This document shows, piece by piece, positions 1 to 11,592 of a stretch of DNA of 24,699 nucleotides (position 1 is the first letter of the stretch; each line of letters opens with the position of its first letter). A program made the translations under genes and the position numbers. The notes under the pieces are model-generated. The model was given only the letters and a program-made list of their open reading frames with translations. It did no database searches and had not been told where the DNA came from. The DNA comes from a virus. The stretch is from the IMG/VR virus record IMGVR_UViG_3300045988_176129, positions 1 to 24,699 of that record, one strand, 5' to 3'.

Positions 1-612
1 AGGAAGGGTATATCCAGTTTCTGGATAAATTTGAGACACAGTCATCATATCTACCAAACCGACTCCTGCACCATTAGCATCAATTACTATTATTTTAGCT
101 CTATACTTATAATATAATTTCTTTATTTTAATAGCCTGAGTTTCAAAATGCTCAGCATCAATAGTATAAAGATTTACTAAACTTTTTATTGAAGTTCCTT
201 GCGGTTGTGGTGTTACCTTGATTACACATATCTCAGTTTTATCTCCCTTTCGACCAACATCAACCCCAAGAACATAATAAGCAGTTTTTCCACTTCTTCC
301 GCTATACTCATACTCAGGTTGACTTAGAACTCTATGTTTATCAAACTTTTCTGCTGAGAAAAAGGCATTTTCAGAATCTCCACTCCATTCAGACTCATAC
401 TCCCTAGCAAAACTAGCATCATTGTATGTACCATCTAATTTTAACTCTTCTATAAAACTACGTTGGAGAAGTTTTTCTTTAACTGGGATTCTCCATGTAC
501 CGCCCATAACAATAGCTTCAGAAGGCTCAATAATCTGCTGAATAAGCAACTGAATAAGTTTAGCATATGCAAAACTGTTTTTCCAGCCTGCTGTTGTTCC
601 TTTGTATTCCAT
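1..612 (-). CDS. terL: terminase large subunit, 3' exon (nuclease domain), partial: C-terminus lies beyond window start
   Basis: Minus-strand ORF open from ~624 to position 1 (MEYKGTTAGW...YYVLGVDVGRKGD...IVIDANGAGVG), RNase-H-like terminase nuclease motifs. Continues the ATPase exon at 1731-2378. Exact 5' exon boundary (612-627) uncertain. Confidence 0.65.
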   Translation of the reverse strand, partial: MEYKGTTAGWKNSFAYAKLIQLLIQQIIEPSEAIVMGGTWRIPVKEKLLQRSFIEELKLDGTYNDASFAREYESEWSGDSENAFFSAEKFDKHRVLSQPEYEYSGRSGKTAYYVLGVDVGRKGDKTEICVIKVTPQPQGTSIKSLVNLYTIDAEHFETQAIKIKKLYYKYRAKIIVIDANGAGVGLVDMMTVSQIYPETGYTLP

Positions 613-1730
613 GTGATTCGCTAAGTCACATGCGTTCTCTTATGAACTGCTATATATTTCTATATAGAGTAGACTATATCTTCACCCTAAGATTAGGGGC
701 CCACCACTTCCACAACCATCGCTTGTTGTGTACTCTCTTTCGAGATAGTCGTTGAACCTTCCTTTTATAAAAGGCTTGGCTGCTGATTACCTTCAACATT
801 ACTTGTAAGGCTTCCCAGCAATTCAATGGGTTTTCTGCTATTGATTACTCAATAGTGATGCTAATACACTTTTTTGTTCATCAGTTAAATTTTGATAAGA
901 TAAATAATAATCTTTATAACTTTGATTTTTTCTAATGCATTCTAATGTATTTCTACTTTTTACTCCTACAAAATTTGCCATTTCATTAAGTGGAATAATC
1001 TTGTTTTCATAATTATATAAAATTAAATGCACTTGCTGCTCAGTTAAATGTCTTTTAGACTTTATTATTGTAGAATAAGCTTTCTTTTCAATAAGATTTT
1101 GACTTTCACAAAAAATTTTATATATCTCTTGCTTTTCTTCTATTGAAAGCTTTTCATATTCTTCTTTATATTGGGAGTGATTTTCTCCTCTTTTTATTCT
1201 ACTAATAGTTGTCCTAGATACATCATATATATCTGATAATACTTGTCCAGGTCTTGACATAAACTCAAGAACAGCTAATATATTAAAAATATCTGTTTGG
1301 GTTAATTTTGAGCCTCCATTACTAGCTCCAAAATTTCCACCCTCATTTTGATTATAACCATTTCTATAACTATCATATTTTTTTATATAATATTTTTCTT
1401 TTTCTCCAATTTCCTTTTCAGTGCAATCCCCTGAAAATTCTATTGTAAAATCAAAGTTCTCAAAACCATAAATATTATACTCTTTTTGAAGAAAATGATT
1501 ATCGTGAGTGCCTCTTCTTAAATCCCCAAAATGACGACATCTTCTTCTAATTATATTATTAGTTAATCCTATATAAATTTTATGATTTATCTTATTTTCA
1601 ATTTTGTATATATAATATTGCATAATATCATCCTTTCTATTCTTTTTGATATTATACTTAAAAATAAAATACAAAAAATTGTAACGTTTTGACCAAAAAA
1701 ATTAACATATATTTGACTTTTATTTACTCT
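613..1730 (-). mobile_element. candidate group I intron carrying a GIY-YIG homing endonuclease ORF, inserted between the terminase ATPase and nuclease domains
   Basis: TerL reading frame is broken by ~1.1 kb. The HEG has its own RBS and start. About 225 nt (613-837) and ~70-110 nt (1624-1730) of non-coding flank could form the ribozyme core. Boundaries are approximate. Confidence 0.5.
838..1623 (-). CDS. GIY-YIG family homing endonuclease (I-TevI-like) with C-terminal DNA-binding region
   Basis: N-terminus MQYYIYKIENKINHKIYIGLTNN...RRRCRHF is a textbook GIY-X10-YIG motif. ATG at 1623 is preceded by AAAGGATGA SD. The six-frame track extends to a TTG at 1674. Confidence 0.85.
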   Translation of the reverse strand: MQYYIYKIENKINHKIYIGLTNNIIRRRCRHFGDLRRGTHDNHFLQKEYNIYGFENFDFTIEFSGDCTEKEIGEKEKYYIKKYDSYRNGYNQNEGGNFGASNGGSKLTQTDIFNILAVLEFMSRPGQVLSDIYDVSRTTISRIKRGENHSQYKEEYEKLSIEEKQEIYKIFCESQNLIEKKAYSTIIKSKRHLTEQQVHLILYNYENKIIPLNEMANFVGVKSRNTLECIRKNQSYKDYYLSYQNLTDEQKSVLASLLSNQ

Positions 1731-2378
1731 CTCTTCATCTATTCTTTCCCCACCTGGCAGCTTCCTAGATACATTCATCGTAGGAATAATTACCTCATTC
1801 AATAAGGTTTCATCTATTAAGATAACCTCTTCCATAAGTCCACCAGTAGCACGCTTACCACGAGAATTTTGACTTGCCGCAATAATATCAAGTTTACTTT
1901 CATTTTTAAATTTATATTCAACTTCATTCTTAGATGCTTTTGAAGCACCTCTACTCCAGTCAATTTCATTTTTAAGACCAGGAATAAGCTTGCATAATTC
2001 TTCTGCCTTTTCTCTTGCGATTCCCGCAGCTTGCTCTTTTCCGCCGGTAGTTACGAATAAATGGCTTCCAGGATACAGTATACAACGAAGCATTAGAATT
2101 AAAACTGACAGAAAGCTCTTACTATAAGCTCTTGGAAACGTAGCATACGCATATCTATGTCGCATTACACCACGTAAAAATACTCTTTGATAAAAGAAAA
2201 GATGGAAATTTTCAGGGTTATCCCCACAAAGAAAATCTACAAACATATCTGGATATTCTCGCCAATAAGCTACATATTTTCTTAAAGTAGGAATTTGTGC
2301 TTTAATTCTTTCTTCAGATAAACCAACTTTTTTACCACCAAAAGAAAGGGAGAGTTCCATTAGTTCTTGTAATGCCAA
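1731..2378 (-). CDS. terL: terminase large subunit, 5' exon (ATPase domain)
   Basis: Deviant Walker A PRAYSKS and Walker B VILIDE typical of TerL. Start is TTG at 2378 with AAGGGAG SD and overlaps the upstream stop; an alternative ATG lies at 2360. Homology ends near ...GGERIDEE (~1731). The ORF stays open to 1587 but that stretch is intronic. Confidence 0.65.
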
Positions 2379-2379: not shown

Positions 2380-3561
2380 TTATCTTTCTCCCTTCATAAT
2401 TTTATCATCCTCTTCTTTTTGAGATTCTATCTCATTATAAAATTCAGCATGATCCTCATTCTCCAAAATTAATTCTTCATCCTCATCTAATTCATTGTTT
2501 TCTTGCTCATTCATCTCTTTCTGAATCTGTATCTTTTTAATAGAATCTTCTATCTGTTGTCCAAAACCTAAATCTTGGGTAACTAATTTATATAAATAAT
2601 TTTCCATATCCTTTAAAGTTAAATCTACTATATCTTGTGGAACATCTGCTAAGGTTGGTGGGATAAAACCTCCATCTCTTTCACACATAGCAACCAACTC
2701 ACCAACAGAATCTACAAAATTATTTTTATCTTCTTTATTCTGAGCCGCGGTAAATTTTGCTGTCTTTCTAAGAGTTTCAGCAACTTTAACTAGCTTTTGA
2801 AATCCTTCAATATCTCCATTATCAATAGCCTGATTAGCTTTAAGATTAGTTTTACATAAGAATATCAAAGTATTCATAGTATCAGCATCTTGAATATCAA
2901 AAGAATGCATCATCTCTTGATAATCCTTTTCTAACAATAGCCATTCATTAGGGGTGTATAATCTTCCCCATTTTAATGCTAATGCTTTCTTATCATCCTC
3001 TGTTAAATCTGCCGCGGGGTTCACTTCTTCTTCAGATATAAAATTACCTTCATTATACATATTAGAAGAACCTACCGCATCTGCGGATGCCCCATACTTA
3101 TAAGCATCATTTTGAGACTCAGCACTCATCCAGGTTTTATATTCAGCCTCAGAAATCTTTCCAGCTTCATAATCCGCCTTTATTTGAGCTTCATATTGTT
3201 CTCTTTCCGCCTGAATTTTTAGCTTATTATCCAAATATTCTTTTTGTAATTTTTCTGTATCATCCCAGTTATACTCTTTCCATTGTCCAAGTCGCATCTT
3301 AGAGAAATATTTACCAATAACAGACATGCCATTCATCTTTACTGGATCTTTTGCAAAAGCCTTATCTCTTAATGTATTCCACTCTTGTTCAATATAAGGG
3401 AAATTGGCCTCTTTGAGAATCCATATAAAAGTCTCAGGTTTAAAATTATCTATATGCATGGTAAGACATTTTTTACAAAGCGTAAAATAGGTTTTATCTT
3501 TCTTTTGATAGAATTGTGTTTCTACCATCTTCTTACCACATTTTTCACATATTCTGTCCAT
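2380..3561 (-). CDS. zinc-ribbon (CxxC...CxxC) acidic coiled-coil protein; possible terminase small subunit / packaging accessory protein
   Basis: 393-aa ORF with AAAGGAGGTG SD and N-terminal CEKCGKK...CKKC ribbon. Lies immediately upstream of and overlapping terL. The TerS assignment is positional only. Confidence 0.6.
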   Translation of the reverse strand: MDRICEKCGKKMVETQFYQKKDKTYFTLCKKCLTMHIDNFKPETFIWILKEANFPYIEQEWNTLRDKAFAKDPVKMNGMSVIGKYFSKMRLGQWKEYNWDDTEKLQKEYLDNKLKIQAEREQYEAQIKADYEAGKISEAEYKTWMSAESQNDAYKYGASADAVGSSNMYNEGNFISEEEVNPAADLTEDDKKALALKWGRLYTPNEWLLLEKDYQEMMHSFDIQDADTMNTLIFLCKTNLKANQAIDNGDIEGFQKLVKVAETLRKTAKFTAAQNKEDKNNFVDSVGELVAMCERDGGFIPPTLADVPQDIVDLTLKDMENYLYKLVTQDLGFGQQIEDSIKKIQIQKEMNEQENNELDEDEELILENEDHAEFYNEIESQKEEDDKIMKGER

Positions 3562-3620: not shown

Positions 3621-4709
3621 CTATTTTTTATTCCTGCATTCCTTACAAATAGAATACCATCCATCTTTACTTCCTTTATTAGTAGAAAAGAAAAGCTTGT
3701 GAGCTAACTTTATTTCTCCACAGCGAGAACAGCGCTTCCATTTTCCATATTCTTTTTCTGTATAATACCAATTTAAAAAATCTTTTTGTGCTTGTAATGC
3801 AATAATTTTTGGGATTTTATTTCTCCAGAGACTAGATAAATATTCCATAGAATGTTTAACTCCATGGTCTACTTCTAGCTGTTTTTGAATTTCAAGATTT
3901 GACTTACCATCAATTTTGTATATAACTAAATCATAATATAAAGGATATTTTTCTTTTAATGAACTTTCAACTAAATTATCTAAATCTTCTAATAAATACC
4001 AAGAGTCTCCCCAAAATCCGCCCCATGAATCTTCTTTTAATTTAGAATAATTACACAATAGGGCAGAAATATGTTCCCAATTAAAAAATGAAATTAGCCC
4101 ATCTGAATGCGGCATACCTTCCGCATCTATACTAAGCTTTTCCCCAAAATCAATCTTTCTAAAAGATTTAATTACATTTAAACAATACATTGGTGGTTTT
4201 ATTTCATTTCTAATAACATATTGTTCTTTATACATTTCTATTAACTGTTGTTTTAATAAATATTTTTTCTTTCCTGTTTCTCTTGATATCTGCTCTTTTA
4301 CTTTATCTATAGCTTCTTTTTTTGCCCTTAGTTCAGGCATTTCTTCATAGTCTCTTGGGGTGATTTTCATTTTTGGAGTAAGAATAATATTTTTATTTTC
4401 ACTATCGGTCATCATATTAAATAACCCATCTTCCCCATTTTCAAGTTTAGAAACTAATCCTTGATAAGATGTTTCATGCTTGTTTATTGTGACTAATCTA
4501 TTGTCTGTCATTAAGTCCTTTTCTTTTTTTCTCTCTTCTCTGTCTGCCAAAAGAATATAGTCACTTAATATTGTTAAATATCTAGGTGTAAGTTTCACGG
4601 GATCGATTTCCGCGCATATTTTTTTTACTAATTCAACTCTTTCTACAGAATTAAGAGAGTAATCTAATTTAAATTCCTTTTGTTGATTATCAACATTATT
4701 TTCTTCCAT
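3621..4709 (-). CDS. hypothetical protein with C-terminal zinc ribbon (CSRCG...CKEC)
   Basis: 362-aa ORF with AAGGAG SD. First gene after the minus-strand promoter at 4759-4788. Confidence 0.65.
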   Translation of the reverse strand: MEENNVDNQQKEFKLDYSLNSVERVELVKKICAEIDPVKLTPRYLTILSDYILLADREERKKEKDLMTDNRLVTINKHETSYQGLVSKLENGEDGLFNMMTDSENKNIILTPKMKITPRDYEEMPELRAKKEAIDKVKEQISRETGKKKYLLKQQLIEMYKEQYVIRNEIKPPMYCLNVIKSFRKIDFGEKLSIDAEGMPHSDGLISFFNWEHISALLCNYSKLKEDSWGGFWGDSWYLLEDLDNLVESSLKEKYPLYYDLVIYKIDGKSNLEIQKQLEVDHGVKHSMEYLSSLWRNKIPKIIALQAQKDFLNWYYTEKEYGKWKRCSRCGEIKLAHKLFFSTNKGSKDGWYSICKECRNKK

Positions 4710-4788: not shown

Positions 4789-4812
4789 TTTTTTTGGTCA
4801 AAAGTGTTAAGA

Positions 4813-4841
4813 TTGACAAATAAAATATTTTTTGTTATAAT
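4813..4841 (+). promoter_or_regulatory. sigma-70-type promoter for the 4867-7622 operon
   Basis: TTGACA 4813-18, 17-nt spacer, TATAAT 4836-41, then AAAGGAG SD and ATG 4867. Confidence 0.6.
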
Positions 4842-4866
4842 TTATATATAGAATAAAGGAGAAAAT

Positions 4867-5184
4867 ATGAGAATATTGATTGTGGGATTTCAAGAGTATG
4901 AGACTCTTGATAAGATGATGCAAAAGCTAATAGAAAATGGGCAATGTTATATCTTTACTGTATTGTGCGGCGGTTGTGAATATAGTGAAGAAAAGAGTCT
5001 AGCTGAACAGTGGGCGATAAATAATGGCGCACCCATTGAATATGTATATGAAAAAGATGTGGATAAGCTTGTCGATAAAATAACGAAATCCGCCGATTAC
5101 CTAGTCGCGCAATCAGGCTCATATTTTTCAGATTGGATTATTAGAAAGATGAAATACATAGAAAAACACGGAAGCGTGATTTAA
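4867..5184 (+). CDS. SLOG/DUF2493-like (YspA-like Rossmann) protein
   Basis: MRILIVGFQEY...CYIFTVLCGG...AEQWAINNGAPIEY matches the DUF2493 pattern (vlvcGgRdf...vvhGGa.GAD.lA..WA...g.p). Assigned by recollection, not a search. Confidence 0.55.
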   Translation: MRILIVGFQEYETLDKMMQKLIENGQCYIFTVLCGGCEYSEEKSLAEQWAINNGAPIEYVYEKDVDKLVDKITKSADYLVAQSGSYFSDWIIRKMKYIEKHGSVI

Positions 5185-5193
5185 GGAGGGAAT

Positions 5194-5472
5194 ATGTTTC
5201 AAATAATAGCTACAATTATAGTAGGATATCTTATATTGGTTGCTTGTCAGTTAGCATATCTCATTTCTGCAAAAGAAGAAGATACTTTATTTGATACTTA
5301 TAAACATGTTTTTAGTTTTAAAATTTTATATAAAGAAACAAATTTAAATGAGTTAGGAGTAATATTATATCTTTTAATACAGATAATATTGTTCCTTCCA
5401 GCTGCAGCCGCATATTTTATTTATTGGTTATGTCATAAAAAGGAGAGGTTAAATGGTTTATCAAGGAAGTAA
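5194..5472 (+). CDS. small membrane protein (2 TM)
   Basis: GGAGGG SD; hydrophobic segments. Confidence 0.55.
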   Translation: MFQIIATIIVGYLILVACQLAYLISAKEEDTLFDTYKHVFSFKILYKETNLNELGVILYLLIQIILFLPAAAAYFIYWLCHKKERLNGLSRK

Positions 5473-6175
5473 AAATAGATTAACAAAATATATTGTTCCA
5501 ATAATACAAAAGGAAATAGATGAAAATAATATAACTACGTATATAGAGCCTTTTGTTGGAGGAGCTAATGTTATTGATAAAATTAGCTGTGAAAATAGGA
5601 TTGGCTCTGATATTAATGAAGAGCTAATCTCATTATTGAGATATATTCAAAAGGATAATAATATTTCTATTGCTCCGTCAGAATGTAGTTTTGAGCATTA
5701 TGCGGAAGTTAGAGAAGCTAGAAAGTTAAAAACCGAGAAATTTTCTAAGGAATATACTGCTTTAATTGGCTTTTGTGCAAGTTATGGCGGACGCTATTTT
5801 GATGGTGGATATGGTAGAGATGCTAAAGGTGGTAGAAGTATCTATGCAGAAAGATTAAAAAATTTAAAAGAACAAGCGCCGCATTTAGATGGAATAGAAT
5901 TTAAAAGCGGAGACTATCGGCAGTATGAAAGCACGAAATTCGCATTATTTTATATGGATCCACCATATAAGGGAACTAAACAATATTCTACCAAGTTTAT
6001 AAATTATGATGAATTTTATGATTTTTGTAGGAATTTAAGTAAAAACAATATTGTTTTAATTAGTGAATATAATATGCCGCCTGATTTTAAATGTATTTGG
6101 GAGAAAGAAAGAACTGTAAAGCAAGATGTGAATAAGAAAGGAATGAAAGCAACAGAAAAGTTGTTTATGATATAA
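5453..6175 (+). CDS. dam: DNA N6-adenine methyltransferase, Dam/D12 class
   Basis: YQGSKNRL N-terminus, motif I EPFVGGANV (FxGxG), catalytic DPPY tetrad at 5947-5958. GGAGAGG SD. Overlaps the upstream ORF by 20 nt. Confidence 0.85.
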   Translation: MVYQGSKNRLTKYIVPIIQKEIDENNITTYIEPFVGGANVIDKISCENRIGSDINEELISLLRYIQKDNNISIAPSECSFEHYAEVREARKLKTEKFSKEYTALIGFCASYGGRYFDGGYGRDAKGGRSIYAERLKNLKEQAPHLDGIEFKSGDYRQYESTKFALFYMDPPYKGTKQYSTKFINYDEFYDFCRNLSKNNIVLISEYNMPPDFKCIWEKERTVKQDVNKKGMKATEKLFMI

Positions 6176-6176
6176 T

Positions 6177-6368
6177 ATGTTATTAGATATTACAGACAAA
6201 GAATTAATTCATTATTTAAATTTAATAGATAATAAAGGCATAGAAAAAGATTTGTGTCATTGGAAACGTGATATTAAAAAAAGAATAAAAAAAGGATATA
6301 TAGAAAATAAGCATGATGAATTAGTCTATTGGTGTATAGGAATTTCCGATGGTTGGATAAAATATTAA
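6177..6368 (+). CDS. hypothetical protein (63 aa)
   Basis: ATG 1 nt after the dam stop, possible translational coupling; weak SD. Confidence 0.45.
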   Translation: MLLDITDKELIHYLNLIDNKGIEKDLCHWKRDIKKRIKKGYIENKHDELVYWCIGISDGWIKY

Positions 6369-6381
6369 GGGGGTTGCCGCA

Positions 6382-6669
6382 ATGAAGAAGATTATAATTA
6401 TGTTAGGAATAATAATGTGTTTTAGTTTAACTGGATGCACCAATACTCAAGAAGGACTAAAGGATTATAATATCCATTCTCATTTAATATCAATAGATGG
6501 AGAGAATGATTTATACTATTATTCTACTACACATATTATATATGTAGTATTTAATGAAGGTAGTAACTATCGCGGGTATGGATATATGGCGCCTTATTAT
6601 TCAGAGAATGGAAAATTGTGTGTATATGATGTTCAAAAGAAAGAGATAATAGAATTGGAGGATAAGTAG
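6382..6669 (+). CDS. putative lipoprotein
   Basis: Signal peptide MKKIIIMLGIIMCFSLTGC with lipobox LTG|C; GGGGG SD. Confidence 0.65.
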   Translation: MKKIIIMLGIIMCFSLTGCTNTQEGLKDYNIHSHLISIDGENDLYYYSTTHIIYVVFNEGSNYRGYGYMAPYYSENGKLCVYDVQKKEIIELEDK

Positions 6670-6670
6670 A

Positions 6671-6838
6671 ATGGAATATTTAAACGCGGCAGACATGAAG
6701 AAGGGCTATTATGGTATAACGGTTGAAATGCTACCTATCCTTGTTAAGGAACTTAAAAATATGGGATATGAAATAACATTTAAGTCAGATAAATTAGAGA
6801 GAAGTGGAAGTGGAATAATAATAAGTTGGAGGAAATAA
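6671..6838 (+). CDS. hypothetical small protein (55 aa)
   Basis: GGAGGA SD 8 nt upstream. Starts 2 nt after the previous stop. Not in the ORF track (<60 aa). Confidence 0.5.
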   Translation: MEYLNAADMKKGYYGITVEMLPILVKELKNMGYEITFKSDKLERSGSGIIISWRK

Positions 6839-6840
6839 AA

Positions 6841-7062
6841 ATGTTTACAGTTACTTTTCCGCTTGATATAGGAACAGAAGTTGAATTGAGTGATGGTAGC
6901 CGCGGTACGGTTGCCGCATATGGAAGCGTAAGGGGAGAAAATAATTTTAGTGTTTGGGTATCTGGAATAGGAGAGTTGTGGTGCGGAGAATATATTTTAG
7001 GAACTGAGGAAGATAGAAACGACCCTAATAAAAAGTTCTATTGTTTTGAAATAAAGGAGTAA
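6841..7062 (+). CDS. hypothetical protein (73 aa)
   Basis: GGAGGA SD 8 nt before ATG 6841. The track start 6826 sits inside the SD. Confidence 0.6.
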   Translation: MFTVTFPLDIGTEVELSDGSRGTVAAYGSVRGENNFSVWVSGIGELWCGEYILGTEEDRNDPNKKFYCFEIKE

Positions 7063-7065
7063 AGT

Positions 7066-7338
7066 ATGCTCAGGGAAATGGTGGAAGAAGAAATAAGAGA
7101 GTATAAGAAAAAGAAAAAAGAGTTTTATGACAATCCTTTACATTGGAATAATAATATGCGGAGGAGGCATGGCTTACCTGTATTAAGAGGTAAAGTAAAT
7201 AAATATCGTTTAAAGAGATGCTCTGGTTTTCATCCTACCGCAGAACTTTTTTATTTATTCGATGATGTTGTTTCAAAAGAAGTAGAGAGAAATTTAGAAA
7301 ACTATTTTAATTTTTTTGCGGAAATAAAGGAGATATAA
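7066..7338 (+). CDS. hypothetical basic protein (90 aa)
   Basis: AAAGGAG SD; tightly packed in operon. Confidence 0.6.
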   Translation: MLREMVEEEIREYKKKKKEFYDNPLHWNNNMRRRHGLPVLRGKVNKYRLKRCSGFHPTAELFYLFDDVVSKEVERNLENYFNFFAEIKEI

Positions 7339-7340
7339 TA

Positions 7341-7622
7341 ATGGTAAAAATAGATACATCATATGGAAAATTTTCTGTTGAAAAATCAGATGGAAATATA
7401 ATAAAAGCTAAAGATATACATGAATTAATAGACATATTACTTCCAGAATCAACAGACAATCCCACGACACAAGTTGTTACATATGTAAGTGATGAGGATG
7501 CGCTTGCTGACGCAACTGATTTAACTGTATTGGCGGCATTATGTTGTTGGGGCAATCGGTTATATAAAGGAGATAACATTAAATTGACAATAACTGCGGA
7601 ATATTGTCCTGAAGATAAATGA
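7341..7622 (+). CDS. hypothetical acidic protein (93 aa)
   Basis: AAAGGAGA SD; last gene before the 1.1-kb non-coding region. Confidence 0.6.
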   Translation: MVKIDTSYGKFSVEKSDGNIIKAKDIHELIDILLPESTDNPTTQVVTYVSDEDALADATDLTVLAALCCWGNRLYKGDNIKLTITAEYCPEDK

Positions 7623-8010
7623 TTGGGGTATTAGATTGAAAATTAATTTGGAATGTATATTTTTTCCGTCTTTGTGAATTGAAAAATGATTTGGAATGTT
7701 GGTGTGGGTGCTAAACCCCTTTTCTCAGATTTAATTTTTAAAAATCCCGAAACTATACCCCCGCCTTAATATTTTTGCAACAGAGAAAAAATTCTCTGAG
7801 TATATTGCTAGTTAGGTGAAAAAATTTTGCGAGCACTGTCTGTAGCACCGACCTATCGAAGCGTTGTGAGATCATTTATTAGGCGGGCAAAGAAGATATA
7901 AAGAAGAGTTATATCAAAGATAATAAGAGATATAAAGAAATAATTTTTATATCATTTTTCTTTTGATTACATAATGCGTCGTCTCGGTGACAACGGAGCC
8001 GAGCCGATTT

Positions 8011-8160
8011 TACGTTAGTAGTTAGGCTTAACTAATTTTAGTTGCATACGGCTAACTCTAGTTAGTTCTGACTAACTCCTGTTAGGCTGAACTAACTCAG
8101 GTTCGTCTTAGCTAACCTTGGTTAGACTGAACTAACTTCTGTTAATCACCGCTAACCTCT
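8011..8160. repeat. tandem array of ~7 degenerate ~20-21-bp direct repeats (GTTAGGCTGAACTAACTCnn)
   Basis: Visible periodicity: agttaggcttaactaatttt / agttgcatacggctaactct / agttagttctgactaactcct / gttaggctgaactaactcag / gttcgtcttagctaaccttg / gttagactgaactaacttct / gttaatcaccgctaacctct. Confidence 0.65.
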
Positions 8161-8180
8161 GGGGTGGGCGGGTGGGGGAG
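8161..8180 (+). other. G-quadruplex-type G-tract (GGGGTGGGCGGGTGGGGG), copy 1 of 5
   Basis: Four or more G3-5 runs with 1-nt loops in a 30% GC background. Same relative position as the tracts at 9469, 10669, 11381 and 12786. Confidence 0.6.
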
Positions 8181-8190
8181 GCTTGGGATA

Positions 8191-8219
8191 ATTATACCAC
8201 AAATCTATCTTTTTGTCAA
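8191..8219 (-). promoter_or_regulatory. leftward extended -10 sigma-70 promoter, cassette copy 1
   Basis: rc TTGACA (8214-19), 17-nt spacer, rc TGGTATAAT (8191-99). Confidence 0.5.
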
Positions 8220-8267
8220 GTAGTAATTTTTCACAAAAATAAAAAATTTTTTTGTGCATTTTGCCTA

Positions 8268-8296
8268 TTGACATGGGCGCATTTTTGTGCTATAAT
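8268..8296 (+). promoter_or_regulatory. sigma-70 promoter with no downstream ORF (putative ~450-nt ncRNA 8303-8750)
   Basis: TTGACA 8268-73, 17-nt spacer, TGcTATAAT 8291-96. No SD/ORF before the terminator at ~8715-8752. Confidence 0.5.
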
Positions 8297-8316
8297 TAAA
8301 ATGATATTAAAATGAT

Positions 8317-8351
8317 ACTTTAGCACGTTAAAGTGTCATCACTGCAAAGCG
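8317..8351. repeat. conserved ~35-nt hairpin element (ACTTTAG-CACG-TTAAAGT + GTYATCACTGNRAAGCG), copy a
   Basis: Family also at 8527-8562, 8607-8640, 8683-8703, 9421-9456, 10628-10663, 12725-12760 and 20699-20733. The stem covaries through G-U pairs. Confidence 0.6.
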
Positions 8352-8375
8352 AAAGACTAAGTTAAAATCCGTTTA

Positions 8376-8405
8376 ATTATACCACACAGTCGTATGGTTT
8401 GTCAA
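8376..8405 (-). promoter_or_regulatory. leftward sigma-70 promoter, cassette copy 2 (faces the plus promoter at 8268 across element a)
   Basis: rc TTGACA (8400-05), 18-nt spacer, rc TATAAT (8376-81). Confidence 0.45.
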
Positions 8406-8430
8406 TAGTAAAATGCAAAAAAAATTGCAC

Positions 8431-8462
8431 AAATTTTAATTTCCCATTTTGTGCAATCTGCA
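8431..8462. promoter_or_regulatory. operator-like inverted repeat TTGCACAA-N16-TTGTGCAA
   Basis: Perfect 8-bp arms. A member of the TGCACAA motif family enriched in intergenic DNA. Confidence 0.45.
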
Positions 8463-8479
8463 CAACGAACAAGTGTTTG

Positions 8480-8690
8480 GTTAGCCTTAACTAACTGTCC
8501 AAACAAACGTTCGGTTAGGCAAGACTAACTTTAGTGCGTTAAAGTGCTATCACTTTGCAGTGAACGTGTGGTCGGTTAGGTAAGACTAACTCAAGTTAGG
8601 AGAGGCTAACTTTAGCACACTAAAGTGATGCAGTAGCAAAGAGTTAGTTAAGACTAATTTAAGTTAGTTCAGACTAACATTAACACTTTA
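8480..8690. repeat. second cluster of GTTAG..GACTAACT iteron-like repeats interleaved with three copies of the 35-nt element
   Basis: ggttagccttaactaact / cggttaggcaagactaact / cggttaggtaagactaactc / agttagttaagactaatt / agttagttcagactaac. Confidence 0.55.
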
Positions 8691-8714
8691 ATGTGTTAAA
8701 GTGTTAATACAAAA

Positions 8715-8752
8715 GAGTAGCACAAAGAACACCTGTTCTCTGTGCTTTTTTC
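8715..8752. terminator. bidirectional rho-independent terminator
   Basis: Hairpin GCACAAAGAACACC/TGTTCTCTGTGC followed by TTTTTTCTTTTAT on plus; T-rich on minus as well. Confidence 0.5.
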
Positions 8753-8754
8753 TT

Positions 8755-8880
8755 TTATTTGTTCAATGATTCAATAATCGTAAAACCTGCCATTTCCGCA
8801 TGTCTTATTTCTTCTGTTGTCATTTCTGTTTTTCCTATTGTGCTATTGTTTAATTTTACTATTACTTTTCTCATGGCCAT
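8755..8880 (-). CDS. hypothetical small protein (41 aa) on minus strand inside the early region
   Basis: AAGGAAAGG SD plus its own minus promoter (8910-8938). MAMRKVIVKLNNSTIGKTEMTTEEIRHAEMAGFTIIESLNK. Not in the track (<60 aa). Confidence 0.4.
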   Translation of the reverse strand: MAMRKVIVKLNNSTIGKTEMTTEEIRHAEMAGFTIIESLNK

Positions 8881-8909
8881 CACCAATTCCTTTCCTTATC
8901 TTTATACTA

Positions 8910-8938
8910 ATAATACATCAAAGCCAAACAAAAGTCAA
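8910..8938 (-). promoter_or_regulatory. sigma-70 promoter (minus) for the 8880->8755 gene
   Basis: rc TTGACT (8933-38), 17-nt spacer, rc TATTAT (8910-15). Divergent from the plus promoter at 8981. Confidence 0.45.
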
Positions 8939-8980
8939 TAGTTTTTTACAAAAAAAATAAAAAATATTTTTAAAAAAGTA

Positions 8981-9009
8981 TTGACAAATTGTTAGTTATC
9001 TGGTATTAT
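8981..9009 (+). promoter_or_regulatory. sigma-70 promoter
   Basis: TTGACA 8981-86, 17-nt spacer, TATTAT 9004-09. Confidence 0.5.
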
Positions 9010-9047
9010 TAGATTACAAGGTAAGGAAAGAGAGGAAAGAAACAAAA

Positions 9048-9119
9048 GTGGAGGAACTTATTCAGTGGCAAAGAGAGTTAGGTATTAGTGAGGAACAGAT
9101 AAAAATTAACATGAGGTGA
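9048..9119 (+). CDS. possible GTG-initiated micro-ORF (23 aa, MEELIQWQRELGISEEQIKINMR)
   Basis: Only ORF downstream of promoter 8981. SD AGAGAGG is 11-12 nt from the GTG, which is weak. Confidence 0.2.
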   Translation: MEELIQWQRELGISEEQIKINMR

Positions 9120-9157
9120 TAATTCAATACTAGATGATGAAATAATAAAAATAAGTG

Positions 9158-9186
9158 TTGACAAATGAAGTATTAGATGTTATAAT
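9158..9186 (+). promoter_or_regulatory. sigma-70 promoter
   Basis: TTGACA 9158-63, 17-nt spacer, TATAAT 9181-86. Confidence 0.55.
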
Positions 9187-9239
9187 AAATATATAATAAA
9201 GGAAAGGAAACCCCACCAAAGGGGTAAAGGTAAAAGATT

Positions 9240-9377
9240 ATGAAAACACCAAAAACAAGAGGATTTTATGAGTTCAAAGATGGTACAGTGGTTTGGTTTG
9301 CTGGATTAAGTGCTAGTGAGCAGAGAAAAGAGATTGCTAAGCATGGCGCAATCATAAAGTTTACACATACTAACTAA
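9240..9377 (+). CDS. hypothetical small protein (45 aa)
   Basis: Leader AAAGGAAAGG-hairpin(CCCC/GGGG)-AAAGGTAAAAGATT-ATG. MKTPKTRGFYEFKDGTVVWFAGLSASEQRKEIAKHGAIIKFTHTN. Followed by a terminator. Confidence 0.5.
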   Translation: MKTPKTRGFYEFKDGTVVWFAGLSASEQRKEIAKHGAIIKFTHTN

Positions 9378-9380
9378 AAA

Positions 9381-9410
9381 TGGGGGCGGTCGCTAAACCG
9401 CTCCTTTTAT
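9381..9410. terminator. rho-independent terminator (bidirectional)
   Basis: GGGGCGG-tcgctaaa-CCGCTCC with a G-U pair, then TTTTAT. The minus strand also has ATTTTTAG after the stem. Confidence 0.55.
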
Positions 9411-9468
9411 CTACCCTTGCCGCTTTAGCACGTTGAAGTGTTATCGCTTCACAGCGTCGCACCCCAGT

Positions 9469-9488
9469 ATTGGGCGGGTGGGTGGGTT
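9469..9488 (+). other. G-quadruplex-type G-tract (GGGCGGGTGGGTGGG), copy 2
   Basis: Preceded by a CCCC-agtatt-GGG mini-hairpin. Confidence 0.55.
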
Positions 9489-9497
9489 ATATATAAT

Positions 9498-9526
9498 ATT
9501 ATACCACATTTTCGTCCAGTTGTCAA
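9498..9526 (-). promoter_or_regulatory. leftward extended -10 promoter, cassette copy 3
   Basis: rc TTGACA (9521-26), 17-nt spacer, rc TGGTATAAT (9498-9506). Confidence 0.5.
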
Positions 9527-9649
9527 GAGTAAAAATTCACAAAAGTAAAGAAAATTTTTTGTAACTATTGCACATTGACTTCTAATGTCAATGGCAAAAA
9601 TAGCCAAAGATCTGCCGCACATTTTATGCAACTTTTTTATCAAAAATAG

Positions 9650-9678
9650 TTGACATGTAATAATTCTTTTGTTATAAT
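9650..9678 (+). promoter_or_regulatory. sigma-70 promoter
   Basis: TTGACA 9650-55, 17-nt spacer, TATAAT 9673-78. Leader GTATACATAAGATAAAGGAAA is shared with promoter 10858. Confidence 0.55.
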
Positions 9679-9720
9679 GTATACATAAGATAAAGGAAAA
9701 AGAAAGAGAGGTAAAAAATT

Positions 9721-9939
9721 ATGGAATACAGAACAATTACAGCAGAGGATTTATACAACGCATTAGTAGAGGTTTGCGGAGTATCTGAGGAATTTATCAG
9801 TGGGGCAGTTGCCGTTGGTGGATTCACGAAGGAAACAATGCATGATGTAGCCTATTATAAAAGCGGTTATCAAACCGTTGAGGATTGGGTTGACGCTATT
9901 ACCGATGAATTTTTAGAAGAGTTAGAAAAGGAGGACTAA
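9721..9939 (+). CDS. hypothetical acidic protein (72 aa)
   Basis: AGAGAGGTAA SD. Confidence 0.6.
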   Translation: MEYRTITAEDLYNALVEVCGVSEEFISGAVAVGGFTKETMHDVAYYKSGYQTVEDWVDAITDEFLEELEKED

Positions 9940-9943
9940 TACA

Positions 9944-10111
9944 ATGCCTAAATTAAGAGATGAAACATTAAGAGAACAGCTCATGCTTACATTGATTAAA
10001 AAGCGTGGACATGAGGACAGAGAGGTTATCCAGTTTTGCAATCTTTGCGAACTTAAAGAATTAAGCGATAAAACAATAAGAGATATTTTTGATAGGTTGA
10101 TAAAAGAATAG
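9944..10111 (+). CDS. hypothetical small protein (55 aa)
   Basis: GGAGGA SD 9929-34. Not in the track. Confidence 0.5.
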   Translation: MPKLRDETLREQLMLTLIKKRGHEDREVIQFCNLCELKELSDKTIRDIFDRLIKE

Positions 10112-10123
10112 GAGGTATCTATA

Positions 10124-10279
10124 ATGAATGATAAAGAGACATTAAAAGATATTTTTTCAAAAGCAAAAATTGAAATCCTCACCGAAGAAGAGGATTATTT
10201 AGAGATAGCAACAAGGGGTTACAATATTGTTAGCCTTACTTTTGATAAAGATGGAAAATTAACTAAAATTTTTGCTTGA
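10124..10279 (+). CDS. hypothetical small protein (51 aa)
   Basis: GGAGG SD 10111-15. Stop overlaps the -35 of the next promoter. Confidence 0.5.
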   Translation: MNDKETLKDIFSKAKIEILTEEEDYLEIATRGYNIVSLTFDKDGKLTKIFA

Positions 10280-10304
10280 CATTTTATCTCTACTAATGTA
10301 TAAT
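10276..10304 (+). promoter_or_regulatory. sigma-70 promoter
   Basis: TTGACA 10276-81, 17-nt spacer, TATAAT 10299-304. Confidence 0.5.
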
Positions 10305-10339
10305 TAAAGTATCAAAAGAAAAGAGAAGGTACAAAAGTT

Positions 10340-10579
10340 ATGAGAGATTTTTTTAATATTAAGGATGACTACTACAGATTTGAAATCTATGACCTTACTG
10401 CAATTTTAACAATTTTAAATGTTGTGTTCGTGCTCATGGGTTATTGGTGGGCGCCGATATTTGGACTTGTAAACTGTGCAATTTGTTTAACAATGAATGT
10501 TATTAACAGGTTGCACATAAACGCCTATCTTACTCAGGTCGCGTTAATAATTTTAAATGTTTACTTTTTAACCTTGTAG
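10340..10579 (+). CDS. small membrane protein (79 aa, 2 TM)
   Basis: AGAGAAGGTA SD; hydrophobic. Confidence 0.6.
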   Translation: MRDFFNIKDDYYRFEIYDLTAILTILNVVFVLMGYWWAPIFGLVNCAICLTMNVINRLHINAYLTQVALIILNVYFLTL

Positions 10580-10586
10580 TAAAGGG

Positions 10587-10620
10587 GCGGATGCTAATAT
10601 TTTAGCATCTGCTTTTTTTG
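10587..10620 (+). terminator. rho-independent terminator
   Basis: GCGGATGCTAA-tatt-TTAGCATCTGC then TTTTTTTG. Confidence 0.6.
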
Positions 10621-10668
10621 TTTGTTACACTTTAACACGTTAAAGCGTAATCACTGAGAAGCGCAGAA

Positions 10669-10698
10669 GGGGTCCGACTTAGGGTGGTAGGGTGGGTA
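10669..10698 (+). other. G-quadruplex-type G-tract (GGGGtccgacttaGGGTGGTAGGGTGGG), copy 3
   Basis: Same cassette position. Confidence 0.5.
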
Positions 10699-10705
10699 TA
10701 GATAT

Positions 10706-10735
10706 ATTATAACACATTTCTTGCCCAGTTGTCAA
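10706..10735 (-). promoter_or_regulatory. leftward extended -10 promoter, cassette copy 4
   Basis: rc TTGACA (10730-35), 18-nt spacer, rc TGTTATAAT (10706-14). Confidence 0.45.
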
Positions 10736-10857
10736 TAGTTAAAATTCACAAAAATGATTAAATTTTTTGTTACTATTGACTATTGACAAAAAATTACAAT
10801 GTGCAATAGTAACAAAAAACTTAATGCTAATTTATTCAACTTTTTTCTACTTTTTTA

Positions 10858-10886
10858 TTGACTTTTAACGCTTAAAGCCTTATAAT
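10858..10886 (+). promoter_or_regulatory. sigma-70 promoter
   Basis: TTGACT 10858-63, 17-nt spacer, TATAAT 10881-86. Confidence 0.55.
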
Positions 10887-10939
10887 GTATACATAAGATA
10901 AAGGAAAGGAAATCCAATAAGGATTAAAGGTAAAGAATT

Positions 10940-11284
10940 ATGAGAACAGCAAAGGTGATATTTATTTCAGAAGAAGAGAAAAGCATGATTGACAGATTAA
11001 AAAAGGCATATATGGCAACTGATTCAGGTAAAAAGAAAAACGCTAGAATCGGAGTTGTTCTCACTGAGATGTGGTATGAGGATAGTCTCAGTTTCGAGGA
11101 TTTCCAAATAGATGAAATAGACTGGAATATGATAGACGATATATTAACAGCTTATGAAGATGAGCCATTAAGAGATAATGAAGGTTATATCTTTGATAAA
11201 GAAGATATGCTGGATGCATTGGCGGACTTTGACCCGTTAGCAGATTCTAAAATATACCATGATTATAAAATTATGATAATGTAA
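10940..11284 (+). CDS. hypothetical acidic protein (114 aa)
   Basis: Leader AAAGGAAAGG-hairpin(AATCC/GGATT)-AAAGGTAAAGAATT-ATG. Confidence 0.6.
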   Translation: MRTAKVIFISEEEKSMIDRLKKAYMATDSGKKKNARIGVVLTEMWYEDSLSFEDFQIDEIDWNMIDDILTAYEDEPLRDNEGYIFDKEDMLDALADFDPLADSKIYHDYKIMIM

Positions 11285-11288
11285 GAAA

Positions 11289-11320
11289 AAAGGCAAGCAC
11301 TTTTTATGCTTGCCTTTATT
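11289..11320 (+). terminator. rho-independent terminator
   Basis: AGGCAAGC-actttttat-GCTTGCCT then TTATTAT. Confidence 0.55.
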
Positions 11321-11380
11321 ATAGCTTAAAAGTTAGTTGTAACTAACTAAGATTAGACTCGACTAACTCCGGTCTTCTCC
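11321..11380. repeat. third short cluster of GTTAG/ACTAACT iteron-like repeats
   Basis: aagttagttgtaactaactaagattagactcgactaactcc. Confidence 0.45.
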
Positions 11381-11408
11381 GGGGTGGGTGGGAGGGGGAG
11401 GGTGGAGG
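11381..11408 (+). other. G-quadruplex-type G-tract (GGGGTGGGTGGGAGGGGGAGGGTGGAGG), copy 4
   Basis: Same cassette position. The leftward -10 here is degenerate (TTAGCA). Confidence 0.55.
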
Positions 11409-11564: not shown

Positions 11565-11592
11565 TTGCAATTTATAACCAAAGTGATATAAT
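11565..11592 (+). promoter_or_regulatory. sigma-70 promoter
   Basis: TTGCAA 11565-70, 16-nt spacer, TATAAT 11587-92. Confidence 0.5.

What the first reader, a model, noticed from the sequence alone, without database searches (positions are those of the whole stretch)
613..1745. Terminase large subunit split by a ~1.1-kb insertion encoding a GIY-YIG homing endonuclease (probable group I intron)
The TerL ATPase domain (Walker A PRAYSKS, Walker B VILIDE) ends near 1731. The nuclease domain resumes near 612-624. Between them lie a complete I-TevI-like GIY-YIG ORF with its own SD and start, plus ~225 and ~100 nt of non-coding flank, which is the usual size of a group I ribozyme core with the HEG in a peripheral loop. 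Insertion sits exactly at the interdomain linker. Intron-invaded packaging genes are rare compared with invaded polymerase or nrd genes. The linker position may be a tolerated homing target.
Basis: partly seen in the sequence, partly recalled or inferred. Interest (0 to 1): 0.6.

Follow-up and report, generated by a model that had tools for sequence, protein, structure and literature searches.

The report
Mobile group I intron in terminase
A phage DNA-packaging gene (terminase large subunit) is interrupted by a 1,106-base self-splicing group I intron carrying its own GIY-YIG homing endonuclease gene; this is a real but well-known kind of selfish element, here with the endonuclease gene looped out of the first helix of the ribozyme.

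Summary
On the minus strand, TerL exon 1 (2378..1705) and exon 2 (598..1, running off the window) are separated by a 1,106-nt group I intron (1704..599). Rfam RF00028 scores 94.7 bits (E 1.6e-23). The joined exons read ...NKSQIYV|TTAGWKNSFAY and match natural intron-less alleles without a gap (98% aa identity, pig gut). The intron holds a 261-aa I-TevI-like GIY-YIG endonuclease (1623..838).

Eighteen distinct same-site relatives support a full IA-type fold: 94% of cells are paired and 54 of 81 pairs show compensatory changes. They also show that the internal guide sequence lies inside the last codons of the endonuclease ORF, so the ORF sits in the P1 loop and its stop codon lies in P2.

- The insertion is not at the interdomain linker. 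It is immediately before the ATPase coupling motif (T4 gp17 TTT 285-287), about 115 aa before the nuclease domain.
- Walker B is probably GGLMEE, not VILIDE.
- Intron-invaded terminases are well documented in Herelleviridae.

Verdict: new member of a known kind, of modest interest.

The parts
1705..2378 (-). TerL exon 1. It holds the ATPase N-terminal part: Walker A PRAYSKS and probable Walker B GGLMEE. It ends ...AAU AAA AGU CAA AUA UAU GU, in codon phase 2.
   Evidence: PHROG_2 terminase large subunit E 2.2e-22 on the spliced protein. hhalign to T4 gp17 aligns Walker A and Walker B. Aligns to intron-less TerL alleles.
599..1704 (-). Group I intron, 1,106 nt, IA-type. 5' splice site after U1705; terminal (omega) G at 599.
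   Evidence: Rfam RF00028 94.7 bits, E 1.6e-23. Boundaries fixed by intron-less alleles L001 and L155 reading ATATATGTAAC / ATATATATTAC across the junction. Exon-1 U and terminal G are invariant in all relatives.
1702..1708 (-). P1 5' strand: exon AUGU (1708..1705) plus intron UAA (1704..1702). U1705 forms the U.G wobble pair.
   Evidence: Covariation with 864..858: 5 of 7 pairs change on both sides and the U.G pair is kept in 18/18.
1682..1700 (-). Conserved intron leader (UUUUUUGGUCAAAACGUUA). It is a tentative P1 extension pairing with the HEG 3' coding region: 1700..1694 with 876..870, and 1685..1682 with 887..884.
   Evidence: Two-strand MFE recovers P1 plus the U-run/A-run helix in 16/16 relatives tested, with z about -1 to -5. 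The register of the distal helix varies, so this part is inferred.
1622..1655 (-). Hairpin AUAAUAUCA...UGAUAUUAU. It encloses the HEG Shine-Dalgarno sequence (1635..1631) in its loop and pairs the first two bases of the AUG.
   Evidence: RNAfold -9.6 kcal/mol, z -2.9. Equivalent stems built from different sequences occur in most relatives. [quoted passage not shown]
838..1623 (-). Homing endonuclease gene, 261 aa. It has an I-TevI-like GIY-YIG catalytic domain (aa 2-93), a flexible linker (aa 92-105) and an all-helical C-terminal region with two HTH-like modules.
   Evidence: Pfam PF01541 E 6.9e-10. PDB 1MK0/1LN0 (I-TevI) E 1.1e-10, with equivalents of R27, E75 and N90 present. AF2 model pLDDT 83.6; Foldseek to 1MK0 gives TM 0.85. 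413 homologous clusters in metagenomes.
858..864 (-). Internal guide sequence UUAGCAU (G861 pairs with U1705). It lies inside HEG codons Leu-Ala-Ser.
   Evidence: Exon/IGS co-variation: AUGU/GCAU, ACGU/GCGU, ACAU/GUGU, UCAU/GUGA, UCGU/GCGA.
838..855 (-). P2 hairpin CUAUUGA-GUAA-UCAAUAG with a GNRA loop. The HEG stop codon UAG (840..838) forms its 3' end.
   Evidence: 5 of 7 pairs covary and 97.6% of cells are paired.
610..830 (-). Ribozyme core and 3' extensions. P3 830-824/706-700; P4 820-815/786-781; P5 811-807/793-789; P6 780-778/758-756; P6a 774-770/765-761; P7 750-746/676-672; P7.1 745-742/737-734; P7.2 730-725/716-711; P8 698-694/689-685; P9 667-661/656-650; P9.1 647-644/637-634; P9.2 632-626/616-610.
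   Evidence: Coordinates. Covariation per helix, e.g. P7.2 6/6, P9.2 7/7 and P7.1 4/4 pairs compensatory. P7 is invariant.
1..598 (-). TerL exon 2. It starts A ACA ACA GCA GGC = (V)TTAG, which is the ATPase C-motif, and continues into the nuclease domain (GVDVGRKGD...). It is cut by the window edge.
   Evidence: Pfam Terminase_6C at residues 116-189 of the 612-start translation, E 3.8e-4, below the cutoff. Alignment to P0001/P0002.

Best explanation

Splicing. After transcription the RNA folds. The last four exon-1 bases plus the first three intron bases (AUGU|UAA) pair over about 840 nt with the guide sequence UUAGCAU to form P1. An exogenous guanosine attacks after U1705, and the freed exon-1 3'-OH then attacks after G599. 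This joins GU+A into a Val codon and restores ...QIYVTTAGW..., the strand and coupling motif of the packaging ATPase. The fold is shown by covariation; the chemistry is inferred.

Layout of the endonuclease gene. The intron's GIY-YIG gene occupies the loop of P1. Its last codons encode the guide sequence and P2, and its stop codon is in P2. A ribosome finishing the endonuclease must therefore unwind P1 and P2, so on any one RNA molecule translation of the endonuclease and splicing are expected to exclude each other (inferred). A hairpin that buries the start codon and encloses the Shine-Dalgarno sequence probably keeps endonuclease translation low on full-length pre-mRNA, as for T4 I-TevI (inferred).

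Mobility. In a mixed infection the endonuclease would cut intron-less terL alleles near this highly conserved motif. Double-strand-break repair from the intron-bearing copy would then copy the intron in, which is homing. This is inferred from the family and from the patchy distribution.
For: - Group I identity: Rfam RF00028 94.7 bits, E 1.6e-23. Relatives score 80-100 bits.
- Junction: the spliced protein is 68% identical without a gap across the junction to the TerL of MT836163.1. It is 98% identical to the natural intron-less protein P0001, and the DNA of that allele reads ATATATGTAAC across the join.
- Fold: on 18 distinct same-site introns, 94.2% of cells are paired against 34-44% when partners are slid. 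54 of 81 pairs have changes on both sides, and 0/500 shuffles reach the observed values for four of the five whole-structure measures (percentage paired, pairs and cells with a change on both sides, covariation score); the count of further pair types did not stand out (129/500). P1 has 5 of 7 covarying pairs and an invariant U.G (raw P1 table).
- Endonuclease: Pfam GIY-YIG. I-TevI catalytic domain by sequence, with catalytic residues kept, and by fold, TM 0.85.
- Patchy distribution: 78 of the 80 closest IMG/VR TerL loci have no insertion here. All 26 close HEG relatives sit at this exact TerL site, in TerLs whose 128-aa exon-2 segment is only 51-84% identical to the window's.
- RBS/AUG hairpin, with the T4 precedent (PMC2988022).
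- Terminase introns are known to splice in related phages (PMC11878797).
Against: - No RNA data: splicing, self-splicing without protein help, and endonuclease activity are all untested.
- P10 is at best 2 bp, and P7 is invariant, so it is uninformative.
- The window's copy has lost the in-frame stop codon that 11 of 18 relatives keep 13 codons into the intron. Ribosomes leaving exon 1 could therefore run 39 codons into the intron, which may lower splicing efficiency.
- HEG and TerL divergences are only loosely incongruent, so recent horizontal homing is suggested rather than proven.
- No cleavage-site motif could be identified.
Confidence: 0.9

Rival explanations
1. It is a free-standing homing endonuclease gene that splits terL into two separately translated polypeptides, with no splicing.
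For: In this window an in-frame AUG (612..610) precedes exon 2 and exon 1 has its own start. Split or fractured genes flanking HEGs exist in phages (PMC2677866 lists such arrangements).
Against: A complete group I core sits between the HEG and exon 2 and is under strong structural selection. P1 covaries with the exon-1 sequence. The in-frame start is present in only 5 of 18 relatives, and several have in-frame stops just before the junction. The cut would fall inside a beta-strand and motif of the ATPase core, which is not a domain boundary.
Confidence: 0.02
2. It is a decayed intron that no longer splices, so terL in this phage is a pseudogene or an assembly of a defective genome.
For: The conserved in-frame stop 13 codons into the intron has been lost in the window copy. 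One relative (L076/L090) has a 1-nt insertion just after the 3' splice site.
Against: Every helix of the consensus fold is intact in the window copy. The Rfam score is as high as in relatives. Both exons are open and 98% identical in protein to an intron-less allele. The HEG keeps its catalytic residues.
Confidence: 0.04
3. It is a genuine intron, but splicing in vivo depends on a protein helper or on ribosome position. The helper could be a host chaperone or a maturase activity of the endonuclease. The RNA would not self-splice on its own.
For: P1 must form across about 840 nt and P10 is weak. Some Bastillevirinae introns, including the phiAGATE terL intron, spliced in infected cells but not in vitro (PMC11878797). 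Ribosomes act as chaperones for T4 introns (PMC3984707).
Against: The core is a canonical IA fold very similar to self-splicing Twort-, T4- and SPO1-type introns. A closing stem (the P1 extension) is predicted to bring the ends together.
Confidence: 0.15

Closest known systems
Phage T4 td intron with I-TevI (group IA2 intron plus GIY-YIG homing endonuclease)
   Same: - IA-type core with P7.1/P7.2.
- An intron-encoded GIY-YIG enzyme whose catalytic domain aligns to I-TevI (E 1e-10, TM 0.85).
- An RBS/start-sequestering hairpin upstream of the ORF (PMC2988022).
- Insertion in a conserved motif of a nucleotide/DNA-metabolism enzyme.
   Different: - The host gene is terL, not td.
- The ORF is in the P1 loop rather than P6 (the T4 location is from my own knowledge). 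The guide sequence and P2 lie inside the ORF's 3' end.
- The C-terminal DNA-binding region is all-helical with two HTH-like modules. It has no zinc finger and no detectable match to the I-TevI DNA-binding domain.
- No operator-like copy of the homing site was found upstream of the ORF.
Group I introns in terminase large-subunit genes of Herelleviridae (Twort-like and Bastille-like phages; SIOphi, phiAGATE) and of Lactobacillus phage LL-H
   Same: The same host gene and the same kind of element. The ICTV profile calls the herellevirus TerL 'intron-invaded' (PMC7414437). SIOphi and phiAGATE terL introns were shown to splice (PMC11878797). The intron core here has blastn similarity to introns of Staphylococcus and Bacillus myophages.
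   Different: The terL introns found in the 52 Bastillevirinae genomes surveyed carry VSR-like endonuclease genes (PHROG family labelled 'HNH endonuclease'), and GIY-YIG enzymes there sit in nrd or thyA genes (PMC11878797). Here a GIY-YIG enzyme sits in terL. LL-H (Mikkonen & Alatossava 1995) is cited from memory and was not compared.
Enterococcus phages VRE9_1/VRE9_2 (PP680567/8) and EF1 (MF001358)
   Same: VRE9_1/2 carry the only cultured-phage homologue of this endonuclease (49.6% identity, annotated 'homing endonuclease'). It lies inside a related group I intron (95 bits) in terL, with the guide sequence at the homologous Ala-Ser codons. EF1 has an ORF-less intron with a very similar core and 3' tail.
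   Different: The insertion sites differ. VRE9 is 5 nt downstream (ACGU|CG) and EF1 is 13 nt downstream (GGU|UUU) of the window's site. The VRE9 ORF runs on into P3-P5. In those records TerL is annotated only as fragments or hypothetical proteins.
Physarum PpLSU3 intron with I-PpoI
   Same: From my own knowledge, not checked here: this is another group I intron whose endonuclease ORF lies in the P1 loop, upstream of the guide sequence.
   Different: It is a eukaryotic nuclear rDNA intron with a His-Cys box enzyme, and there is no coupling with bacterial-type translation of a host protein gene.

Membership tests
Group I intron (Rfam RF00028) | Covariance-model score above the curated gathering threshold | tested here: met
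   94.7 bits against 50, E 1.6e-23, full model 1-253.
Group I intron (Rfam RF00028) | Conserved core helices P3-P9 supported by compensatory changes | tested here: met
   94.2% of cells paired and 54 of 81 pairs compensatory; slid controls give 34-44%. P7 itself is invariant and therefore uninformative.
Group I intron (Rfam RF00028) | P1 formed by the exon-1 end and an internal guide sequence, with a U.G wobble at the 5' splice site | tested here: met
   U1705.G861. U.G in 18/18 relatives and 5 of 7 P1 pairs covary with the exon sequence.
Group I intron (Rfam RF00028) | Terminal (omega) G at the 3' splice site, giving an in-frame exon join | tested here: met
   G599. G is at this position in all relatives. 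The join reproduces intron-less alleles exactly.
Group I intron (Rfam RF00028) | P10 pairing between exon 2 and the guide sequence | tested here: not met
   At most 2 A-U pairs and no consistent pairing across relatives (read by eye from the sequences; no separate P10 scan was run). P10 is dispensable in many introns, so this does not exclude membership.
Group I intron (Rfam RF00028) | Guanosine-dependent self-splicing | not testable with these tools
   Needs in-vitro transcription and splicing, or RT-PCR.
Subgroup IA (T4/Twort-like phage introns) | Extra helices P7.1 and P7.2 between P7 and P3' | tested here: met
   P7.1 has 4/4 and P7.2 has 6/6 pairs with compensatory changes.
GIY-YIG homing endonuclease, I-TevI-like | GIY-YIG catalytic domain with the conserved Tyr, Tyr, Arg, Glu and Asn | tested here: met
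   Pfam PF01541 39.5 bits against 22.6. Alignment to 1MK0/1LN0 keeps the R27, E75 and N90 equivalents. Foldseek TM 0.85, rmsd 2.4 A.
GIY-YIG homing endonuclease, I-TevI-like | I-TevI-type linker and DNA-binding domain (zinc finger, minor-groove helix, HTH) | tested here: not met
   No sequence or fold match beyond residue 93. The C-terminal half is 11 helices with only weak, sub-threshold HTH hits.
GIY-YIG homing endonuclease, I-TevI-like | Site-specific cleavage of the intron-less allele and intron homing | not testable with these tools
   Only indirect support: presence/absence polymorphism among near-identical alleles and one fixed site in diverged TerLs.
Terminase large subunit | N-terminal ASCE ATPase (Walker A, Walker B, C-motif) plus a C-terminal RNase H-like nuclease | tested here: met
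   PHROG_2 E 2.2e-22 over residues 45-408. hhalign to T4 gp17 aligns Walker A and B, though weakly (E 0.0027, probability 11%). The C-motif lines up with SKIIITTTPNG only in a simple global pairwise alignment and by eye, because hhalign stops at residue 188. Terminase_6C scores 20.9 bits, just under its 22.6 cutoff. The homologue in Enterococcus phage H1 is annotated TerL.
Free-standing HEG / fractured gene | The endonuclease gene lies between two independently translated gene halves, with no ribozyme | tested here: not met
   The HEG lies within intron boundaries defined by P1 and the terminal G. The start codon for the second half is not conserved.

The most novel reading that the evidence does not exclude
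The ribozyme's target-recognition element (the guide sequence), P2 and a P1-closing stem are written into the 3' coding sequence of the endonuclease. This would have two consequences. First, a ribosome completing the endonuclease must melt P1 and P2, giving a built-in either/or switch between making the nuclease and making terminase mRNA. Second, retargeting the ribozyme needs only Ala/Val codon changes in the endonuclease (GCA, GCG, GUG), which track the terL allele. Together with related introns 5 and 13 nt away in Enterococcus phages and an unidentified ~258-nt insertion 30 nt away, this would make the ATPase coupling motif of TerL a hot spot where one intron lineage repeatedly re-targets neighbouring positions.
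Probability: 0.35. Interest if true: 0.5.

Novelty: new member of a known kind. Interest (0 to 1): 0.3.

Why it matters
The practical value is mostly for annotation.
- TerL is the standard marker for classifying tailed phages. Here gene callers produce two fragments plus a 'hypothetical' nuclease, as in the GenBank records of VRE9_1 and EF1.
- This intron-endonuclease family is abundant in gut and rumen viromes: 413 protein clusters, always at one terL site.

The biological points are modest.
- It adds a clear, covariation-supported example of a phage group I intron whose endonuclease ORF sits in the P1 loop and encodes the guide sequence and P2.
- It pinpoints the ATPase coupling motif, not a linker, as the homing target. 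This fits the rule that homing endonucleases target the most conserved and functionally critical sequences.
- The endonuclease pairs an I-TevI-type nuclease domain with a different, tandem-helical DNA-binding region, which could interest nuclease engineers.

Tried and rejected
1. Rfam's own P1/P2 and 3' end. The model aligned P1 to a hairpin inside the ORF (911..870) and ended at G650. This was rejected because an in-frame UAA follows 650 and because covariation places P1 at 1708-1702/864-858 and the end at G599.
2. Candidate guide sequences in the 5' leader (GUAUAA, GUAUUU). They are not conserved in L076 and other relatives.
3. TerL against PDB by sequence and by profile. No meaningful hits.
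4. AlphaFold model of TerL from a shallow alignment. Mean pLDDT was 35, which is unusable, so no fold-level mapping of the insertion site was possible. The mapping rests on hhalign and motif alignment to T4 gp17.
5. A sigma-70 promoter in the leader. Promoter-like sites were not enriched (14 against 10.1 expected) and none lay in 1704..1640.
6. The T4 late-promoter motif TATAAATA. 7 found against 7.5 expected in the window.
7. An I-TevI-style operator, i.e. a copy of the homing site upstream of the ORF. The best match was 13-14 of 20, not better than shuffles.
8. A conserved read-through peptide (NFFGQNVTKICA*) fused to exon 1. Variation in the leader is 3-periodic: entropy 0.20/0.36/0.71 by codon position, and 89 synonymous differences against 14 and 34 in the other frames. 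However, relatives with a shifted frame keep the nucleotides. The leader is also predicted to pair with HEG coding sequence, whose wobble positions could imprint the same periodicity. This remains an open minor question.
9. P10. No convincing pairing was found.
10. The distal P1 extension (GUUA/UAAC). The register varies between relatives, so it is kept only as tentative.
Full report
**What is there**

All features lie on the minus strand. An ORF starting at TTG 2378 encodes the N-terminal part of a terminase large subunit. It runs into AT-rich sequence after ...NKSQIYV. A second reading frame from about 612 to the window edge continues the same protein family. Between them lies a 261-aa ORF (ATG 1623..838) preceded by AAGGA. 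It matches Pfam GIY-YIG at E 6.9e-10 and PHROG homing-endonuclease families.

A scan of the whole window against Rfam gives a single hit. It is RF00028, group I intron, at 911..650 on the minus strand, with 94.7 bits against a gathering score of 50 and E 1.6e-23.

**Exact boundaries**

An intron-less homologue from human faeces (MT836163.1, locus L001) encodes one 591-aa TerL reading ...NKSQIYITTAGWKNSFAY....

Joining window 1705 to 598 gives ...NKSQIYVTTAGWKNSFAY.... This aligns over 424 aa at 68% identity, with its only gap about 170 residues upstream of the join.

At DNA level, U at -1 and a terminal G allow only one solution. Exon 1 ends ...AUAUAUGU (1705). The intron is UAAUUUU...CAAAGG (1704..599, 1,106 nt). 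Exon 2 starts AACAACAGC (598).

A protein search then found P0001, a natural uninterrupted TerL from pig-gut metagenomes. It is 98% identical, and its DNA (93% identical) reads ATATATGTAAC across the join.

The Rfam alignment stops at G650, but an in-frame UAA follows that position. The real 3' end lies after two further hairpins, P9.1 and P9.2.

**Relatives and distribution**

- Of the 80 closest TerL loci in IMG/VR, 78 have no insertion here. One (L076) has the same intron plus endonuclease gene. One (L005) has an unrelated 258-nt insertion 30 nt downstream.
- Searching with the endonuclease found 26 loci with full-length relatives (52-84% identity). Every one lies at this same terL position (23 with both exon flanks in the retrieved locus, 3 with only one), and their 128-aa exon-2 segments are 51-84% identical to the window's.
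- In the large protein collection the endonuclease family has 413 clusters, about 260 aa each, all with PF01541.
- Presence/absence among near-identical alleles, together with a fixed site across diverged hosts, is the classic signature of a homing element.

**RNA structure**

I removed the ORF from 18 distinct same-site introns, aligned them (A1) and scored a hand-built model.

- 94.2% of cells form standard pairs, against 34-44% when partners are slid by 1-3 columns.
- 54 of 81 pairs show changes on both sides.
- None of 500 shuffles reaches the observed values on four of the five whole-structure measures; the count of further pair types did not stand out (129/500).

The fold has P1, P2 (GNRA loop), P3-P9, P7.1, P7.2, P9.1 and P9.2. 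This is an IA-type phage intron.

The most informative result concerns P1. The guide sequence is not near the 5' end. It lies about 840 nt downstream, in the last codons of the endonuclease (UUAGCAU, 864..858, encoding Leu-Ala-Ser). It covaries with the exon:

| Exon 1 end | Guide sequence |
|---|---|
| AUGU | GCAU |
| ACGU | GCGU |
| ACAU | GUGU |
| UCAU | GUGA |
| UCGU | GCGA |

Intron position +1 also switches from U-A to A-U, and the U.G wobble is kept in 18/18.

The ORF is therefore looped out of P1. P2 (855..838) follows immediately and contains the endonuclease stop codon. ORFs that overlap core elements are a known arrangement (PMC3984707, figure 2 legend).

**The 5' leader**

The first 30 or so intron bases (UAAYUUUUUUGGNCAAAAYGUUAY) are strikingly conserved.

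- Their variation is 3-periodic in the exon-1 frame, and 11 of 18 relatives end that frame at codon 13.
- Relatives with a shifted frame nevertheless keep the nucleotides.
- Two-strand folding pairs the U-run with the CAAAAAA of the Glu-Gln-Lys codons upstream of the guide sequence in all 16 relatives tested. It often also pairs GUUAY with RUAAC further out.

I read this as an extension of P1 that closes the ORF loop. The support is moderate (z about -1 to -5, variable register).

Just upstream of the ORF, a hairpin (1655-1647/1630-1622) holds the Shine-Dalgarno sequence in its loop and pairs the start codon. Stems with different sequences but the same layout recur in relatives. [quoted passage not shown]

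I found no sigma-70-like promoter, no enrichment of the T4 late motif, and no operator-like copy of the homing site.

**The endonuclease**

- Residues 3-93 align to the I-TevI catalytic domain (PDB 1MK0/1LN0, E 1.1e-10) with the R27, E75 and N90 equivalents present.
- An AlphaFold model (pLDDT 83.6) superposes on 1MK0 at TM 0.85.
- Residues 92-105 are a low-confidence linker.
- Residues 109-259 form 11 helices with two HTH-like repeats. This part has only weak sub-threshold Pfam HTH hits and no significant structural match. It does not resemble the zinc-finger/HTH DNA-binding domain of I-TevI.

**Where in TerL the intron sits**

A profile of the family aligned to T4 gp17 puts PRAYSKS on Walker A (SRQLGKT) and RGKRATGGLMEE on RGNSFAMIYIDE, the Walker B motif with its catalytic Glu. 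The score is weak (E 0.0027, probability 11%), but the motif spacing is identical and the residues are invariant in the family.

The junction SQIYV|TTAGWKNSFAY lines up with T4 SKIII|TTTPNGLNHFY. The TTT (285-287) is the ATPase C or coupling motif; the motif identity is from my knowledge of the T4 literature, and the sequence itself is.

The nuclease domain (GVDVG..., Terminase_6C) starts about 115 residues later. The insertion is thus inside the ATPase core at a highly conserved motif, not at the interdomain linker. A structure model of TerL to confirm this failed (pLDDT 35).

**Neighbouring sites**

- Enterococcus phages VRE9_1/2 carry the only cultured-phage homologue of this endonuclease (49.6% identity). 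It sits in a related intron 5 nt downstream.
- Phage EF1 has an ORF-less intron with a very similar core 13 nt downstream, a second intron after IIP|MMNV, and an HNH gene.
- L106 has three group I introns in terL.

This stretch of terL is an insertion hot spot.

**Comparison with the literature and verdict**

Terminase introns are established. The ICTV Herelleviridae profile lists TerL as intron-invaded (PMC7414437). In Bastillevirinae, 5 of 52 TerL genes carry introns that splice in vitro or in vivo (PMC11878797). Reviews name terminases among the typical phage targets (PMC3984707).

The finding is therefore a correct call of a new member of a known kind. Its specific points of interest are a GIY-YIG enzyme with a non-TevI DNA-binding half, the ORF-in-P1 layout with the guide sequence and P2 inside coding sequence, and the targeting of the ATPase coupling motif. 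Interest is scored 0.3.

Noticed in passing
L101 / L102 (IMGVR_UViG_3300001483_000014, 3300021255_000109), TerL exon 1 just before the intron: The conserved Gln codon of NKSQI is TAG (AAC AAA AGT TAG ATA TTC GT) in an otherwise intact TerL. This suggests a phage that reads TAG as Gln (stop-codon recoding).
   Followed up: no
L076 = L090 (IMGVR_UViG_3300031853_005497), first codons of exon 2: A one-base insertion (ACA ACA GCT C GGC TGG) shifts the frame right after the 3' splice site. It could be a sequencing error or a decaying terL.
   Followed up: no
window 1587..1704 (-): The window's intron has lost the in-frame stop that 11 of 18 relatives keep 13 codons into the intron (...CA*). Here the exon-1 frame stays open for 39 codons and overlaps the endonuclease start.
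   Followed up: partly
window 1665..1704 (-) and relatives: Variation in the conserved intron leader is 3-periodic in the exon-1 frame (entropy 0.20/0.36/0.71 by codon position). It is not settled whether this reflects a translated 12-aa tail or pairing with endonuclease coding sequence.
   Followed up: partly
L003 (Enterococcus phage EF1 MF001358), L106, L086/L097/L098, L005: terL in this clade is multiply invaded. EF1 has two group I introns plus an HNH gene, and L106 has three group I introns. L086, L097 and L098 have a roughly 1-kb insertion, and L093 and L107 one of roughly 250 nt, after ...IIP|TMNV with no Rfam hit in the loci scanned. L005 has a 258-nt insertion 30 nt downstream of this site, also with no Rfam hit at the gathering score.
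   Followed up: partly
window 2380..3561 (-): The 393-aa gene abutting the TerL start (its stop TAA is next to the TTG start) has an N-terminal CxxC...CxxC zinc-ribbon and an acidic tail. It belongs to PHROG 3314 (unknown function) and is conserved upstream of terL in L001 and in Enterococcus phages. By position it is a candidate small terminase or packaging partner.
   Followed up: no
window 3621..4709 (-): A 362-aa protein matches PHROG 5767 'sigma factor' (E 4.9e-43). Its C-terminal CxxC...CxxC end gives weak hits to endonuclease VII / HNH families.
   Followed up: no
window 4800..24699: The rest of the window is packed with small ORFs (mostly 90-150 aa) on both strands, with no tRNA genes. 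It looks like an early or accessory gene region. The window is 31.6% G+C and the intron 27.8%.
   Followed up: no
window 650..911 (-): The Rfam alignment forces P1 onto a hairpin inside the endonuclease ORF and ends the intron 51 nt early. Automated intron boundaries from RF00028 would be wrong at both ends for this family.
   Followed up: yes
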